Of a stretch of 64,000 bases of DNA, positions 6,233 to 11,887 are shown piece after piece (the stretch's first letter is position 1; every line of letters begins with the position of its first letter). The notes below the pieces were generated by a model. That model ran no database searches, was not told where the DNA came from, and was given only the letters and a program-made list of their open reading frames with translations. The position numbers and the translations under genes were made by a program. The stretch comes from Escherichia coli (GTDB lineage: Bacteria > Pseudomonadota > Gammaproteobacteria > Enterobacterales > Enterobacteriaceae), in NCBI RefSeq assembly GCF_003019035.1, contig NZ_CP027447.1, one strand, 5' to 3'.

Positions 6233-7723
6233 TTATTGACGCCGTAAACGCATTATTTTGCGGATTATTGGCGTCAGTAGCGTAAAGGCTGCCAGAGTCA
6301 GCAATGCCAGAGTGATCGGTCGGGTATACAGAAAGTCGAGTGACCCACCAGAAAGCGACAGCGCACGGCGAAAATTACTTTCCGCCATTGGCCCCATAAT
6401 CAATGCCAGCACTACGGGTGACGCCGGATACCCCCCTTTTTGCATGAAATAGCCCACCACGCCTGCAATCAGCATAATGCCAACATCAAAAAGGCTATTG
6501 TTCAACGCATAAGTCCCGACCACACAAAGTGCGAGGATCATCGGTGTGAGAATATTGCCGGGAATTTTCACCACATTACCGATGACTTTCAAAGAGAGCA
6601 GTCCAAGAACTAGTAGCATGAAGTAACAGAAGATCATGCCGACAAACAGTGTATAAACCATATCGCCGTGGTCGGTAAACATCAGCGGGCCTGGTTGCAT
6701 TCCCTGTAACGTTAACGCGCCCAGCATGATGGCAGTTACCGCATCGCCAGGGATCCCCAGCGTCAGCATAGGTAACAATGCGCCACCGGTGCAGCCATTC
6801 GCGCCTGCCTCACAGGAGGCCACAGCTTTAATTTCACCCTTACCAAAGTTTTCTGGTGTCTTACTGAAACGACGAGTTTCGTTATAGGCAACAAAAGCTG
6901 CAATATCCGCCCCCGCACCGGGGATCATGCCGATAAAAACCCCTAATCCTGATGAGCGCAAAATGGTTAATGCAATGCGGCGTAGTGTCTGCCAGGGCAG
7001 TAACAGACTGCCGATAGCCACCTTCGCCCCCTGACGAATTTGCTGGTTTTGCTCCATAGAGCGGAATGCTTCTGAAGCAGCAAATAAACCAATCATCACC
7101 GGGATAAATGGCACATTCATCAGCTCCACAAATCCACCTGTAAACCGTGGAAAACCGCCCATTGGATCAAGGCCTATCGTTGCGATCAGCAATCCGCCAA
7201 CCCCGGCAATCAGCCCTTTAATCAGTGACTCACCGGAAATACTGGCAATAATGCTCAGTCCGAAGGTTGCCAGGGCGAAGGACTCCGAGGCACTAAATTT
7301 CAGCGCCCAACTGGCAAGTACCGGAGAGAGAAACATCAGCACGATAATGCTGAGCGTTCCGCCACTAAAGGAAGAGAACGTGGCGGCACTCAATGCCAGC
7401 CCTGCTTTTCCCTGTTTCGTCAGCTCATAACCATCAATAGCGGTGGCTGCGGCGGCAGGCGTTCCGGGAATTTTGAGCAAAATTGCGGTGATAGAACCAC
7501 CGTAGACGCCACCAAAAAAGACGCCGCAAATCATCAACAAGCCAGAAACAGGCTCCATGCCGTAGGTGAAAGGCAGCAAAATCGCCACACCCATGGTCGC
7601 TGTCAGACCAGGCAAAGCGCCAATCACAATACCCAGCATCACCCCAAAAGTGGCAAACAGCAGCGCCTGAGGATTATTGAGTAATGTCGAAAAACCCTGA
7701 GTTAAAAGTTCACTTTCAAACAT
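6233..7723 (-). CDS. Tripartite tricarboxylate transporter large permease, TctA family, 496 aa
   Basis: ORF track 496 aa; highly hydrophobic, Gly/Ala-rich polytopic membrane protein of TctA size and composition. Confidence 0.8.
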   Translation of the reverse strand: MFESELLTQGFSTLLNNPQALLFATFGVMLGIVIGALPGLTATMGVAILLPFTYGMEPVSGLLMICGVFFGGVYGGSITAILLKIPGTPAAAATAIDGYELTKQGKAGLALSAATFSSFSGGTLSIIVLMFLSPVLASWALKFSASESFALATFGLSIIASISGESLIKGLIAGVGGLLIATIGLDPMGGFPRFTGGFVELMNVPFIPVMIGLFAASEAFRSMEQNQQIRQGAKVAIGSLLLPWQTLRRIALTILRSSGLGVFIGMIPGAGADIAAFVAYNETRRFSKTPENFGKGEIKAVASCEAGANGCTGGALLPMLTLGIPGDAVTAIMLGALTLQGMQPGPLMFTDHGDMVYTLFVGMIFCYFMLLVLGLLSLKVIGNVVKIPGNILTPMILALCVVGTYALNNSLFDVGIMLIAGVVGYFMQKGGYPASPVVLALIMGPMAESNFRRALSLSGGSLDFLYTRPITLALLTLAAFTLLTPIIRKIMRLRRQ

Positions 7724-7735
7724 TGCTGGCCCCTG

Positions 7736-8242
7736 TTATTCGAAAAATGTGCCGACAGGCAATGGCACCTGTAACGCTTCGACAAACAGCAACCAGAGGA
7801 TTGCCGTTAACAGCAGCGCAATACCCGGTGTGAGTACCCATCGCCTGTAGCCCATCAACGTCATAATGACGATGAGGAAAACAGGAGTAGTAATGAGATA
7901 ACCGCAGTAGCCCATCGTCACAATATAAAACGCGGTTGCCGCAATTCCTGTTGCCGTTTTCCTGAATGCCGGTTTTTCCTGTGCGTTGGCGCAAGAGGCT
8001 GGTTTTGCCTGCAAAAGATCGCGTATCACCAGCAAGACAGCGAGCACAATCAGGGCACAGGCATAGAAGGTAGGGAAGGCACTTGCACCGGGATCCGTTT
8101 CAATGGCAGTTGCTGGAAAATCAGCGGCATTAATCATCACCGCGCCAGCAACCACACAAAGTAACAGCGCCACCACCATCGTTGATGAAAGGCGCTTGCG
8201 GTGCGGTACGGCGAGTTGAGCAACAGACTGTTTTGTGTTCAT
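7736..8242 (-). CDS. Tripartite tricarboxylate transporter small permease, TctB family, about 168 aa
   Basis: Small hydrophobic protein between the TctC-like and TctA-like genes; start taken at the ATG one codon inside the track start (TTG). Confidence 0.65.
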   Translation of the reverse strand: MNTKQSVAQLAVPHRKRLSSTMVVALLLCVVAGAVMINAADFPATAIETDPGASAFPTFYACALIVLAVLLVIRDLLQAKPASCANAQEKPAFRKTATGIAATAFYIVTMGYCGYLITTPVFLIVIMTLMGYRRWVLTPGIALLLTAILWLLFVEALQVPLPVGTFFE

Positions 8243-8258
8243 CAACCGTACCTCAGGT

Positions 8259-9233
8259 TTATTTTTTCAGGCCCAGGCGAGTCAGCAACTCGTCAAAGTA
8301 CTTTTCCTGTTCGCTGATTTGGGTCTGGAAGCTGGCAGCGTCAAGCCATGCATAGTTGAGATTCAACTTTTGCAGTGCATCCTGGAATGCAGGCTCTTCA
8401 GCCGTCTCTTTTGCTGCCTTTGCCAGAACATCCACCACATCCTGCGGCGTTTTTTGCGACACAATCAGGCCGCGCCAGGTGCCGATGGAGAGATCAACGC
8501 CTTTCTCTTTTAACGTCGGGACGTCAGGCATGGTTTTCATTCGCTCATCCGCCATCACTACCAGTGTCTTCAGCTTGCCGCCTTTCACATGGTTGATAAC
8601 TTCACCTGGGCTTACGGAAACCGCTTCAATATGCCCGCCTAACAGACCTGTAATGGCAGGAGCTGCGCCGTCATACGGGACATGGGAAAACTTTGCGCTC
8701 GTTTTGTCTTCCAGTGCAGCTGCCGCCAGATGCCAGATAGCTCCGGTGCCTGAGTTACCAATGCGTACTTTTCCGGGATTCGCTTTGGCGTAAGTCATAA
8801 ATTCTTCATAGCTATTCCACGGCGCATCGGCACGGACGGTGATAGCCGCCGGATCCGCATTCAGACGGGCAATGGGTTTAAAGTCGCTGGTTTTAAAACG
8901 CACCATTCCGAGGCTGGGAAGGGTGGTCAGTTCAACCGTGCCTAAACCAATTTTGTAACCGTTAGGGCGGGCAGCGGCGATTTCACTCAGGCCGATAGCG
9001 CCGCCACCGCCAGGTTTATTGATAACTCCGATGCTGACGGGCAAATGGTTTTTGGCGGCATCAGCAAAGGCACGGGCCACCAGGTCCGTACCGCCTCCGG
9101 CAGCGTAGGGAACGATTAGCTCGATCTGTTTGGTTGGGTAGGAGGCAGCCTGTACAGGCGCAGTGCTGAGGGCAGCGCCTGCAATAAGTACTATCGCAGC
9201 TATTTTTTTCGGTAAGGTAAGATGTTTTATCAT
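8259..9233 (-). CDS. Periplasmic substrate-binding protein, TctC/Bug family, 324 aa
   Basis: Signal peptide (MIKHLTLPKKIAAIVLIAGAALSTAPVQAAS); size and position upstream of tctB/tctA; RBS AAGGA. Confidence 0.8.
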   Translation of the reverse strand: MIKHLTLPKKIAAIVLIAGAALSTAPVQAASYPTKQIELIVPYAAGGGTDLVARAFADAAKNHLPVSIGVINKPGGGGAIGLSEIAAARPNGYKIGLGTVELTTLPSLGMVRFKTSDFKPIARLNADPAAITVRADAPWNSYEEFMTYAKANPGKVRIGNSGTGAIWHLAAAALEDKTSAKFSHVPYDGAAPAITGLLGGHIEAVSVSPGEVINHVKGGKLKTLVVMADERMKTMPDVPTLKEKGVDLSIGTWRGLIVSQKTPQDVVDVLAKAAKETAEEPAFQDALQKLNLNYAWLDAASFQTQISEQEKYFDELLTRLGLKK

Positions 9234-9256
9234 AGTTTTATATCCTTATTTATCAG

Positions 9257-9886
9257 TTATTTGCTATTTAAATTATTCCATGCATTCATAAACAGCACTG
9301 CATTTTCATAGACCTGCTCTGGCGTCATGCCGGGGCGATATAGCGCAGAACCGAGGCCAAAACCGTTTGCGCCGTGGCTCAGATAACGCGCCATTGTTTC
9401 CGGTGTGATACCGCCAACCGGTAACATCGGAACGGATTGCGGAATAACCGCACGCCAGGCTTTGGTGACTTCTGGCGTAATTTGTTCGGCCGGGAACAGC
9501 TTGATGGCATTGGCGCCATGTTCAATGGCAGCAAAAGCTTCGGTGGGCGTAGCGACGCCTGGCGCGCAATACATACCCAGCGCACGGGCGCGACGGATCA
9601 CCGCAGTATCGCAATGCGGCATCACGATAATCTGGCCCCCAGCCTCTTTAACCGCAACCACCTGCTCTACCGAAAGCACAGTTCCGGCTCCGACCAGGCA
9701 GTCCTTAGGCAGGGCGTCGCGCAGTAAACTGATACTTTGCAACGCCTCCGGCGAGTTCATAGGAATCTCAATCAGGCGGAATCCGGCGGCGTACAGTTTT
9801 TCACCGATGGCGACAATCTCATCCGGTTTCACGCCGCGTAAAATGGCGACTAACCCGGTTTTTTGCAAAAGCGTCTTAAATGGCAT
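9257..9886 (-). CDS. 2-dehydro-3-deoxy-6-phosphogalactonate aldolase-like (DgoA/KDPGal aldolase family), about 209 aa
   Basis: Core LVAILRG...EIPMNSP...GAGTVL...GVATPTEAF...FPA...VGGI resembles E. coli DgoA from memory; start set at MPFKTLL (ATG 9884-9886, RBS AGGGAA), overlapping the kinase stop by 11 nt. Confidence 0.8.
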   Translation of the reverse strand: MPFKTLLQKTGLVAILRGVKPDEIVAIGEKLYAAGFRLIEIPMNSPEALQSISLLRDALPKDCLVGAGTVLSVEQVVAVKEAGGQIIVMPHCDTAVIRRARALGMYCAPGVATPTEAFAAIEHGANAIKLFPAEQITPEVTKAWRAVIPQSVPMLPVGGITPETMARYLSHGANGFGLGSALYRPGMTPEQVYENAVLFMNAWNNLNSK

Positions 9887-10880
9887 GGGTATATTCCCTG
9901 GCGTTGGTGGACAGTAACCCGGCAGCGTGGGCGATTCGCCATAATCCCTGTTCAGTGGCATTAGGAATGGCGTGTATCTGTCTGTCGGGAAAAACGTGGC
10001 TGAATGCTTGTGAATAGCGGCTGTTCAGATTTGCGCTACCGATTAAGGCGATCGGTGTTGTGGCGGGTAAATCACGTAGCAAACTGGATGCCAGACCACA
10101 TAATTCATGGCCTATCAGTAATCCGGAAAGGTAATCCCCCTGCGAGGACGACGTAAGATTACTGGTCAGCAGGCGCGAACGGGTCGAAAACAGCGTCGAT
10201 AATAATCCGGTCTGATGATGCTCTTGTGCTGCTGTCAGCCCGTGGGTGAAGGCATCCCAGTGCGGTTCATCTCCAGGATGCATGGTGGCACCGAGAATCG
10301 AATGGCGGGATAAAACATCAAATAACTCGCCCGTCATAAAGGTTCGGAAATCGGTAATGGTGTTGTTTTCAACTACTGCCCATTTCGCATGTGTGCCGGG
10401 TAAGCCTATCAGCACTGGCATACCCTGATGGATCGCGTTTTGCAGGGCCGGTTCCATCGAGATAGCACCGAAGATTTGTGTCTCTTCGCCACGCATCACT
10501 TCGGGCATTTCACCTTCTTTAATCACGCCAGGAATGATGTGCAGCATTGTCTGCTGCTGGTGGATAACAGGCGTCAACTGCTTCGCCAGACCCTCGAGAG
10601 TGACCGGGCAAGGTAAATAAGCTGCTGGTTGCCACCCTTGCGCACTGCCGAGCATGCCGCAAGCCAGTACCGGGCATGGGGTTTGTGCCAGCCAGTCGCC
10701 GCAGACACGTAAAAACGTATCGTGGAAAGCGTCCTCACGTGTTGCTGCCTGGGAGGGTAATTTCATGATCCCCCAGGGGAATTCACGTTTTTCTTGTGGA
10801 TTTGGTGATTCGCCAAAACGCCATGCCCGAAGCGATGACGTTCCCCAGTCCAGGGCAATAAATGAGGGTGCTCCCGGCAT
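9876..10880 (-). CDS. 2-dehydro-3-deoxygalactonokinase-like (DgoK family), 334 aa
   Basis: N-terminal IALDWGTSSLRAW and internal VMRGEETQIFG / GTHAKW motifs parallel E. coli DgoK; RBS AAGGAAA. Confidence 0.8.
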   Translation of the reverse strand: MPGAPSFIALDWGTSSLRAWRFGESPNPQEKREFPWGIMKLPSQAATREDAFHDTFLRVCGDWLAQTPCPVLACGMLGSAQGWQPAAYLPCPVTLEGLAKQLTPVIHQQQTMLHIIPGVIKEGEMPEVMRGEETQIFGAISMEPALQNAIHQGMPVLIGLPGTHAKWAVVENNTITDFRTFMTGELFDVLSRHSILGATMHPGDEPHWDAFTHGLTAAQEHHQTGLLSTLFSTRSRLLTSNLTSSSQGDYLSGLLIGHELCGLASSLLRDLPATTPIALIGSANLNSRYSQAFSHVFPDRQIHAIPNATEQGLWRIAHAAGLLSTNAREYTHAI

Positions 10881-10903
10881 TAGTCGTTTCCTTTAATCAT
10901 GGT

Positions 10904-11671
10904 TTATTTATCTTTGCGGACGTGCTTACCCCAGCCCAGTTCAGCGGATATCTCTTCTGCACAGGATTTGACGTAAGGTGCCAGTTCTTCCAGACGCGCC
11001 AGCGACATATACGTGGTGGTACTGGCGACAGAAATAGCCGCCACAATTTCATCCCGGGCGTTGTAAACCGGCGCTGCAACGCAACGGATAGTCGGCTCGT
11101 TCTCTTCCAGATCAAAAGCAAAACCACTGGCGGCATAACGACGCATGTTCTGAATAAATGCGCCCAGTTTTGTTTCATCACCACAGGTCTTAAACAGCGT
11201 GCGCCACTCTTCTTCTGTTCGGTTGAGGATCAATGCCTTGCCGATGCCGGTGATTGCCAGTGGCATGCGATGGCCTGGGCGTGAGCGCATTTCCAGCCCG
11301 CGCTGACTGTTGATCTTCTCCAGATACAGCACTTCGTCGCCTTCAACGATCCCCAGATGCACGGTGTCCAGGGTGTAACGGGCAAGGCGTTGCAAAACGG
11401 GCTGGGCAATTTCGTACAGCGAGGTGCTTTCCAGTGCTCTGGCACCGAATTCGATCAGTTTGGCACCCAGTTGGTAGCCCTGCGTTGGGACATGGCGCAG
11501 GTAGCGTTGTTCCACCAGAACGGTGACTAAACGATGGGTTGTGCTCCGGGTCGTGCCGGTGAACTCGCCGATACTTTTTAGGTCATGGCAGCCGTTATAA
11601 ACAGCATTAAGAACCGCCAGTCCACGTAATAACGTTTGTGCGCCTGCGGTGGTTGAAGAGGTTTCTGCCAT
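10904..11671 (-). CDS. IclR-family transcriptional regulator, about 255 aa
   Basis: N-terminal HTH region (LLRGLAVLNAV...) and C-terminal effector domain typical of IclR; start set at MAETSS (RBS AGGAGA) rather than the longer track ORF. Confidence 0.8.
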   Translation of the reverse strand: MAETSSTTAGAQTLLRGLAVLNAVYNGCHDLKSIGEFTGTTRSTTHRLVTVLVEQRYLRHVPTQGYQLGAKLIEFGARALESTSLYEIAQPVLQRLARYTLDTVHLGIVEGDEVLYLEKINSQRGLEMRSRPGHRMPLAITGIGKALILNRTEEEWRTLFKTCGDETKLGAFIQNMRRYAASGFAFDLEENEPTIRCVAAPVYNARDEIVAAISVASTTTYMSLARLEELAPYVKSCAEEISAELGWGKHVRKDK

Positions 11672-11887
11672 ACGTTTCTCCTGATGATATTGCTGAAGTG
11701 TTCCACATAATGACGTGGGGAAAAGGTGATATATCCCACAATATAAACTCCATCTCATATTGTGGGATAAAATAATGAAAATTAACGATCGTTTTGCGTA
11801 GCGCCTCGCAGGAAACTTCTTTCAAACTGGACGTTTGTACAGCACAATTCTATTTTGTGCGGGTAAGTTGTTGCGTCAGGAGGCGTT

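What the first reader, a model, noticed from the sequence alone, without database searches (positions are those of the whole stretch)
9876..9961. Kinase and aldolase coding regions overlap; aldolase start ambiguous
The longest aldolase ORF (234 aa) would overlap the kinase by 86 nt. An internal ATG at 9884-9886 with an RBS gives a 209-aa protein that aligns with DgoA-sized aldolases and an 11-nt overlap, as in known dgoK-dgoA pairs. The shorter start is more plausible, but translational coupling means the true start should be tested.
Basis: seen in the sequence. Interest (0 to 1): 0.2.

Follow-up and report, generated by a model that had tools for sequence, protein, structure and literature searches.

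The report
Ordinary kinase–aldolase gene overlap; short start
Two neighbouring sugar-acid genes in an E. coli accessory operon overlap by 11 bases, and the longer 86-base overlap is only a by-product of reading the longest open frame, so this is an ordinary, already correctly annotated gene junction.

Summary
On the minus strand a DgoK-like kinase (9876-10880) ends inside the longest aldolase ORF (9257-9961), giving an 86-nt overlap. An internal ATG at 9886-9884 gives a 209-aa protein and an 11-nt overlap.

All computable evidence favours the short start:
- RefSeq/PGAP calls it in all 10 E. coli genomes inspected.
- E. coli DgoA (PDB 2v81), the NCBIfam DgoA model and 120 homologues all begin at or just before M26. 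None matches the 25-residue extension.
- In orthologous loci (Buttiauxella, metagenomic Enterobacterales) the extension frame is closed by a stop, or by the kinase stop directly abutting the ATG.
- E. coli polymorphisms in the 75-nt extension are 5 synonymous/2 nonsynonymous in the kinase frame but 1/6 in the extension frame.
- Only the short ATG has an SD-like AGGGAA, 7 nt upstream, and it is conserved across orthologues.
- Stop-free off-frame runs of this length are ordinary in this gene.

One correction: the K-12 dgoK-dgoA overlap is 17 nt, not 11.

Translational coupling is plausible but untested. The gene pair belongs to an uncharacterised IclR–kinase–aldolase–TctCBA operon between udp and rmuC, present in about 27% of complete E. 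coli genomes. Nothing at the junction is novel.

The parts
9876..10880 (-). DgoK-like 2-dehydro-3-deoxygalactonokinase CDS, 334 aa, stop TAA at 9878-9876
   Evidence: ORF. Pfam PF05035 DGOK scores 298 bits against a cutoff of 25. PDB 3r1x 2-oxo-3-deoxygalactonate kinase, E=2e-37. PGAP CDS WP_096987059.1. 35% identical to K-12 DgoK.
9257..9886 (-). DgoA-like 2-dehydro-3-deoxy-6-phosphogalactonate aldolase CDS, 209 aa, true start ATG at 9886-9884
   Evidence: PGAP CDS WP_096987060.1, 630 nt. NCBIfam NF006600 scores 321 bits against a cutoff of 207, starting at residue 28 of the long form. PDB 2v81, E=5e-50. 46% identical to K-12 DgoA without gaps. Homologue N-termini align at M26.
9876..9886 (-). 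Real 11-nt overlap ATGCCATTTAA (aldolase start, kinase stop)
   Evidence: Sequence. The same 11-nt architecture is found in Buttiauxella L003 and in L010/L011.
9887..9961 (-). 75-nt apparent N-terminal extension of the aldolase ORF. It codes only for the kinase C-terminus and is not aldolase coding sequence.
   Evidence: No homologue covers it. The frame has a stop in Buttiauxella/L010 and is absent in L004/L005. E. coli SNPs are 1 syn/6 nonsyn in this frame against 5/2 in the kinase frame. There is no SD before ATG 9961 (dG +0.4 against -5.1 kcal/mol).
9894..9899 (-). SD-like AGGGAA, 7 nt upstream of the aldolase ATG, inside the kinase coding sequence
   Evidence: Anti-SD duplex of -5.1 kcal/mol. 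The purine-rich RGGGRAA motif is kept at the same distance in all enterobacterial orthologues although the kinase residues encoded there differ (ARE/TGK/TGE/TRE). It is invariant in 10 E. coli alleles.
10904..11671 (-). IclR-family regulator, first gene of the operon (255 aa by PGAP; longest ORF runs to 11758)
   Evidence: Pfam IclR_C/HTH_IclR. PGAP CDS. AGGAG lies before ATG 11671.
6233..9233 (-). TctC (8259-9233), TctB (7736-8242) and TctA (6233-7723): tripartite tricarboxylate-type transporter genes downstream in the same operon
   Evidence: Pfam TctC. PGAP annotation. Pfam TctB/TctA in orthologous loci. The closest solved SBP, 4x9t, has no known ligand.

Best explanation
The aldolase is translated from the ATG at 9886-9884, giving a 209-aa KDPGal-type class I aldolase. 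Its start codon lies 8 nt upstream of the kinase stop codon, so the two genes overlap by 11 nt. The 25 extra codons of the longest ORF are an accidentally open +1 frame over the 3' end of the kinase gene and are not translated as aldolase. The aldolase ribosome-binding site (AGGGAA) is embedded in the last codons of the kinase gene. The likely consequence (inferred, not shown) is that ribosomes finishing the kinase terminate a few bases past the aldolase ATG and can re-initiate there, which would help keep the two enzymes of the pathway in step. The pair sits in one tightly packed operon: IclR regulator, kinase, aldolase, TctC, TctB, TctA. The gaps are 23 nt, -11 nt and 23 nt.
For: Annotation: PGAP calls the 630-nt CDS with the 11-nt overlap in SCU-301 (100% identical to the window) and in nine other inspected E. 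coli genomes. The 209-aa form heads a cluster of 1200 member sequences on at least 1000 contigs, against 21 members for the cluster holding the 234-aa form.

Homology: solved E. coli DgoA residue 6 aligns to residue 34 of the long form without gaps, so DgoA M1 corresponds to about residue 29. NCBIfam NF006600 begins at residue 28. None of the 120 best homologues covers more than about 91% of the long form. The closest orthologues start exactly at M26.

Orthologous loci: Buttiauxella L003 and L010/L011 have the same 11-nt overlap, but the extension frame has a stop 16 codons upstream and no alternative start. In L004/L005 the kinase TGA directly abuts the ATG. K-12 dgoA has a stop 5 codons upstream.

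Selection: 7 polymorphic sites in the 75 nt among 10 E. coli alleles are 5 syn/2 nonsyn in the kinase frame and 1 syn/6 nonsyn in the extension frame.

Initiation signals: the SD duplex is -5.1 kcal/mol at 7-nt spacing for the short ATG, against +0.4 for the long ATG. The G-rich motif is conserved across orthologues.

Chance: stop-free off-frame runs of 49-62 codons occur elsewhere in the same gene.
Against: There is no direct experimental evidence (N-terminal peptide or ribosome profiling) for this accessory operon, and no paper on it was found. The SD is weak (-5.1 kcal/mol, against -8.5 for K-12 dgoA). The upstream ATG and the open frame are retained in all 10 E. coli alleles examined, so low-level initiation there cannot be formally excluded. 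A few GenBank submissions annotate the 234-aa form (e.g. CAR05470.1, AKK35430.1). The SNP sample is small (7 sites).
Confidence: 0.9

Rival explanations
1. The aldolase starts at the upstream ATG (9961-9959) and is a 234-aa protein with a 25-residue N-terminal extension that overlaps the kinase by 86 nt.
For: It is the longest ORF. The ATG and the open frame are present in all 10 E. coli alleles examined. Some GenBank records annotate it this way.
Against: There is no SD. The extension has no homologue. The frame is interrupted by a stop in the orthologues. The frame evolves as non-coding (1 syn/6 nonsyn). Conservation of the ATG is explained by the kinase codons xAT-GCx.
Confidence: 0.03
2. 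Both starts are used: the 209-aa form is the major product, and a minor 234-aa isoform arises from leaky initiation at ATG 9961.
For: The frame is open and the ATG is present in E. coli. Nothing computational can exclude rare initiation.
Against: There is no SD and no selection on the extension frame. Any such product would be non-functional noise rather than an evolved isoform.
Confidence: 0.05
3. The aldolase starts further downstream, for example at the TTG six codons after ATG 9886.
For: An in-frame TTG exists. K-12 DgoA is three residues shorter at the N-terminus.
Against: There is no SD before the TTG. All orthologues keep an ATG at alignment column 26 or 27, and the residues after it are moderately conserved. 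PGAP does not call it.
Confidence: 0.02

Closest known systems
E. coli K-12 dgoK-dgoA junction in the dgoRKADT D-galactonate operon
   Same: The enzyme families are the same (PF05035 kinase followed by a KDPGal-type PF01081 aldolase) and in the same order. There is a short out-of-frame overlap with the aldolase SD inside the kinase 3' end. The aldolase keeps the DgoA positions E37, V154, A11/I12 and the active-site Lys.
   Different: The overlap is 11 nt here and 17 nt in K-12. The proteins are only 46% (aldolase) and 35% (kinase) identical, and the kinase is 42 aa longer. The operon has an IclR regulator rather than GntR-type DgoR, no DgoD dehydratase, and TctCBA instead of the MFS DgoT.
Orthologous IclR-kinase-aldolase-TctCBA island between rmuC/ubiE and udp in Buttiauxella warmboldiae and metagenomic Enterobacterales
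   Same: Gene order and chromosomal position are identical. The 11-nt overlap ATGCAATTTAA is the same in L003/L010/L011, and the G-rich SD-like motif is conserved.
   Different: The aldolase is 66-69% identical. In L004/L005 the kinase is 7 residues shorter and its TGA abuts the ATG, so there is no overlap. The extension frame is closed by stops.
dgo clusters of Collimonas and Pseudomonas (IclR, DgoK, DgoA, DgoD, MFS)
   Same: These hold the closest non-enterobacterial aldolases (about 60% identity), the long (329-335 aa) kinase type, and an IclR regulator.
   Different: Kinase and aldolase are separated by 19-27 nt and do not overlap. A dehydratase and an MFS transporter are present and there is no TctCBA.

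Membership tests
KDPGal aldolase (DgoA; NCBIfam NF006600 / Pfam PF01081) | Scores above the curated family cut-offs | tested here: met
   NF006600 scores 321.3 bits against a cutoff of 207. PF01081 scores 106.8 against 27.8.
KDPGal aldolase (DgoA; NCBIfam NF006600 / Pfam PF01081) | Active-site Schiff-base lysine and proton-shuttle glutamate (DgoA K126, E37) | tested here: met
   The gapless alignment puts K129 and E40 (209-aa numbering) at these positions. Both columns are invariant in 31 homologues. The role of E37 is taken from PMC4915726. The number K126 for the lysine comes from my own knowledge.
KDPGal aldolase (DgoA; NCBIfam NF006600 / Pfam PF01081) | KDPGal-type stereoselectivity residues (beta7 V154 rather than Thr; beta1 A11-I12) | tested here: met
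   V157 and A14-I15 align to DgoA V154 and A11-I12. These are the determinants described in PMC4915726.
KDPGal aldolase (DgoA; NCBIfam NF006600 / Pfam PF01081) | Cleaves 2-keto-3-deoxy-6-phosphogalactonate | not testable with these tools
   Needs an enzyme assay.
2-keto-3-deoxygalactonate kinase (DgoK, PF05035) | Full-length match to the family profile and to solved members | tested here: met
   PF05035 scores 298 bits over profile positions 1-281. PDB 3r1x and 3t69 give E of about 1e-37. No NCBIfam model matched.
Canonical dgoRKADT D-galactonate operon | GntR-type DgoR, DgoD dehydratase and MFS DgoT alongside K and A | tested here: not met
   The island has IclR and TctCBA and no dehydratase. 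The K-12 dgo operon is a separate locus. This is a paralogous cluster, not the dgo operon.
Overlapping, translationally coupled gene pair | Same strand, with the downstream start codon at or before the upstream stop, and an SD inside the upstream gene | tested here: met
   ATG at 9886 and TAA at 9878-9876. AGGGAA lies 7 nt upstream.
Overlapping, translationally coupled gene pair | Downstream translation depends on translation of the upstream gene | not testable with these tools
   Needs a premature-stop or reporter experiment. No sequestering RNA structure is predicted (z = 0.38).

The most novel reading that the evidence does not exclude
The junction itself is ordinary. The most novel reading left open concerns the operon it belongs to. 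An IclR-regulated kinase and aldolase are coupled to a TctCBA (TTT-family) transporter, with no dehydratase. This would be an uncharacterised route that imports an already dehydrated 2-keto-3-deoxy sugar acid (for example 2-keto-3-deoxygalactonate) and feeds it straight into pyruvate plus glyceraldehyde-3-phosphate. About 27% of complete E. coli genomes carry it, and it has decayed independently in some lineages. That would also be an unusual monocarboxylate sugar-acid substrate for a TTT transporter.
Probability: 0.4. Interest if true: 0.3.

Novelty: already known. Interest (0 to 1): 0.05.

Why it matters
It matters little. Short out-of-frame overlaps between consecutive operon genes, and longest-ORF over-extensions, are routine in bacteria, and the current RefSeq annotation already uses the short start. 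The practical value is limited to three points. The handful of GenBank records with a 234-aa aldolase are mis-started. The overlap region is constrained by the kinase frame plus an embedded SD. Anyone expressing this aldolase should clone from ATG 9886. The surrounding accessory operon is uncharacterised and could repay a substrate screen, but that is a separate question from this finding.

Tried and rejected
- **Literature:** Four full-text searches for the island (dgoK/dgoA with TctC or tripartite tricarboxylate, E. coli) found no paper on this operon or its start sites.
- **RNA structure at the junction:** A 120-nt fold has z = 0.38 against shuffles. There is no evidence of a structure that masks the SD/AUG.
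- **Internal promoter or terminator between kinase and aldolase:** Consensus hits are at the chance level, and none lies at the junction.
- **Programmed frameshift or kinase-aldolase fusion:** No slippery motif lies before the kinase stop. The 303-539-aa fusion-like proteins in the database are single-contig frameshift variants, namely loss of one C in CCC or of an ACAG repeat unit just upstream of the overlap, read through the open extension frame. They were treated as mutations or assembly errors.
- **Whether the premature TAG seen in CE10 is common:** At most 144 of 1453 carriers differ in the 57 nt around it, and two such alleles (Nissle, N96) are intact. The TAG is therefore a minority allele.
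- **TctC ligand from solved structures:** The closest structure, 4x9t, is an apo protein of unknown ligand.

Full report
**What is in the sequence.** On the minus strand the window carries a 334-aa ORF at 9876-10880 and, overlapping it, a 234-aa ORF at 9257-9961. Reading the sequence confirms the kinase stop TAA at 9878-9876 and an in-frame ATG at 9886-9884, which is codon 26 of the long ORF. From that ATG the overlap is 11 nt (ATGCCATTTAA). AGGGAA at 9899-9894 lies 7 nt upstream of it.

**Identity of the genes.** The upstream protein is a full-length PF05035 2-keto-3-deoxygalactonokinase (298 bits). It matches the solved kinases 3r1x and 3t69 at E of about 1e-37. The downstream protein scores 321 bits on NCBIfam NF006600, the 2-dehydro-3-deoxy-6-phosphogalactonate aldolase model, against a cutoff of 207. 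It matches solved E. coli DgoA (2v81) at E=5e-50.
- The gapless alignment with K-12 DgoA is 46% identical.
- It places K129, E40, V157 and A14-I15 (209-aa numbering) on the DgoA active-site lysine, E37, V154 and A11-I12.
- PMC4915726 describes these as the proton-shuttle and KDPGal-versus-KDPG stereoselectivity positions.
- The protein is therefore a KDPGal-type aldolase by sequence.

**Origin and context.** The window is E. coli and is 100% identical to strain SCU-301. The two genes lie in a packed operon between udp and rmuC: IclR regulator, kinase, aldolase, TctC, TctB, TctA. The region is found in 1453-1456 of 5426 complete E. coli genomes. It is a paralogue of the canonical dgoRKADT operon, not the operon itself, which lies elsewhere.

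**Which start? Annotation.** PGAP calls the 630-nt CDS with the 11-nt overlap in SCU-301, CE10, Nissle 1917, N96, an ST131 strain, R32_14_1F, SCAID URN1, MDR_56, T7Express and O84:H7 Trh52. In the 15-billion-protein collection the 209-aa form belongs to a cluster of 1200 members, and one allele alone is seen on at least 1000 contigs. The 234-aa form occurs in a cluster of 21, from a few submitter-annotated GenBank records such as CAR05470.1 and AKK35430.1.

**Which start? Homology.**
- DgoA residue 6 aligns to residue 34 of the long form, so DgoA M1 corresponds to about residue 29.
- The NCBIfam model starts at residue 28.
- None of the best 120 homologues covers more than about 91% of the long query.
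- In a 31-sequence alignment the closest orthologues begin exactly at M26, and no sequence reaches back more than 8 residues before it.

**Which start? Orthologous DNA.** The same island, in the same chromosomal position, was recovered from Buttiauxella warmboldiae (L003) and from metagenomic Enterobacterales (L004, L005, L010, L011).
- In L003, L010 and L011 the 11-nt overlap is conserved. The aldolase frame upstream has a stop 16 codons before the ATG and no alternative start codon.
- In L004 and L005 the kinase is 7 residues shorter and its TGA directly abuts the aldolase ATG.
- In K-12 dgoA there is a stop 5 codons upstream.
- In Collimonas and Pseudomonas the genes are separated by 19-27 nt.
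- The upstream ATG persists even in Buttiauxella, but it is followed there by a stop after 10 codons. It is explained by the conserved kinase codons xAT-GCx (N/Y/H-Ala).

**Which start? Selection.** Among 10 E. coli alleles, the 75-nt extension has 7 polymorphic sites. In the kinase frame 5 are synonymous and 2 are not. In the extension frame 1 is synonymous and 6 are not. The sample is small, but the direction is what is expected if only the kinase frame is read.

**Which start? Initiation signals.** Pairing with the 16S 3' end gives -5.1 kcal/mol for the short ATG at 7-nt spacing, and +0.4 (nothing) for the long ATG. The G-rich motif (AGGGAA/GGGAAA/GGGGAA) is kept at the same distance in all enterobacterial orthologues, although the kinase residues it encodes vary.

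**Which start? Chance.** In this operon the +1 frame has 5.5% stops, giving P of about 0.24 for 25 open codons. Open runs of 38, 49 and 62 codons occur elsewhere in the same frame of the kinase gene. The long ORF needs no special explanation.

**Mechanism.** What is shown is that the aldolase start codon and its SD-like element lie inside the last 24 nt of the kinase gene, and that the kinase stop lies 8 nt past the aldolase ATG. What is inferred is that terminating ribosomes can re-initiate at the nearby ATG, coupling the two enzymes' synthesis. I found no RNA structure that would enforce coupling by masking the start (z = 0.38). I found no internal promoter or terminator at the junction. Coupling is plausible, as for many such overlaps, but it is untested.

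The phrase 'as in known dgoK-dgoA pairs' is only loosely right. K-12 dgoK-dgoA overlap by 17 nt. The 11-nt form is specific to this island and its Buttiauxella-like orthologues.

**Comparison and novelty.** This is an ordinary short gene overlap with a longest-ORF artefact, and it is already resolved correctly in RefSeq. The only open biology is the operon as a whole. It lacks a dehydratase and the MFS transporter of dgo clusters and has a TTT transporter instead. The closest solved binding protein (4x9t) has no known ligand. No paper on the operon was found. A role in direct uptake of a 2-keto-3-deoxy sugar acid is a reasonable but untested inference.

**Verdict.** The novelty class is 'already known' and the interest is 0.05.

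Noticed in passing
window 9741 (equivalent position in L002, E. coli CE10): In strain CE10 the aldolase carries TTG>TAG (codon 49 of the 209-aa form), and PGAP marks it as a pseudogene. At most 144 of 1453 island carriers differ in the surrounding 57 nt, and two such alleles are intact, so the TAG is a minority allele. The window's copy is intact.
   Followed up: partly
window ~10770-10774 (equivalent in L018, E. coli B / T7Express): The E. coli B lineage carries the island, but its kinase is frameshifted (G5>G4 run at kinase nt ~107-111) and PGAP marks it as a pseudogene. This is a natural test case for kinase-aldolase coupling.
   Followed up: partly
window 10904-11758 (-): The IclR regulator shows the same longest-ORF problem. 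The longest ORF is 284 aa from ATG 11758, which has no SD. PGAP aa from ATG 11671, which is preceded by AGGAG.
   Followed up: partly
window 6233-11671 (-): The accessory operon IclR-DgoK-like-DgoA-like-TctCBA lies between udp and rmuC, with no dehydratase, in about 27% of complete E. coli genomes. It sits at the same site in Buttiauxella and other Enterobacterales. The nearest non-enterobacterial relatives (Collimonas, Pseudomonas, about 60% identity) have DgoD and an MFS transporter instead. The substrate is unknown and no literature was found.
   Followed up: partly
window 9892 and 9875: The window allele is unusual at two sites. It has kinase Y329 (TAT), where the 9 other E. coli alleles examined have Cys (TGT). 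It has aldolase K4 (AAG), shared only with CE10, where the 8 other E. coli alleles and the orthologues have Asn.
   Followed up: no
window ~9965-9985 (kinase 3' end, cccgacagacagata): Rare database proteins of 303-539 aa are kinase-aldolase read-through fusions. They are created by loss of one C in CCC, or of one ACAG repeat unit, which shifts the kinase into the open extension frame. Each is a single-contig variant and is probably a mutation or an assembly error.
   Followed up: partly
P0002: This 208-aa metagenomic aldolase on a 763-nt contig is Pseudomonas-like in its N-terminal half and identical to E. coli in its C-terminal half. It is probably a chimeric assembly.
   Followed up: no
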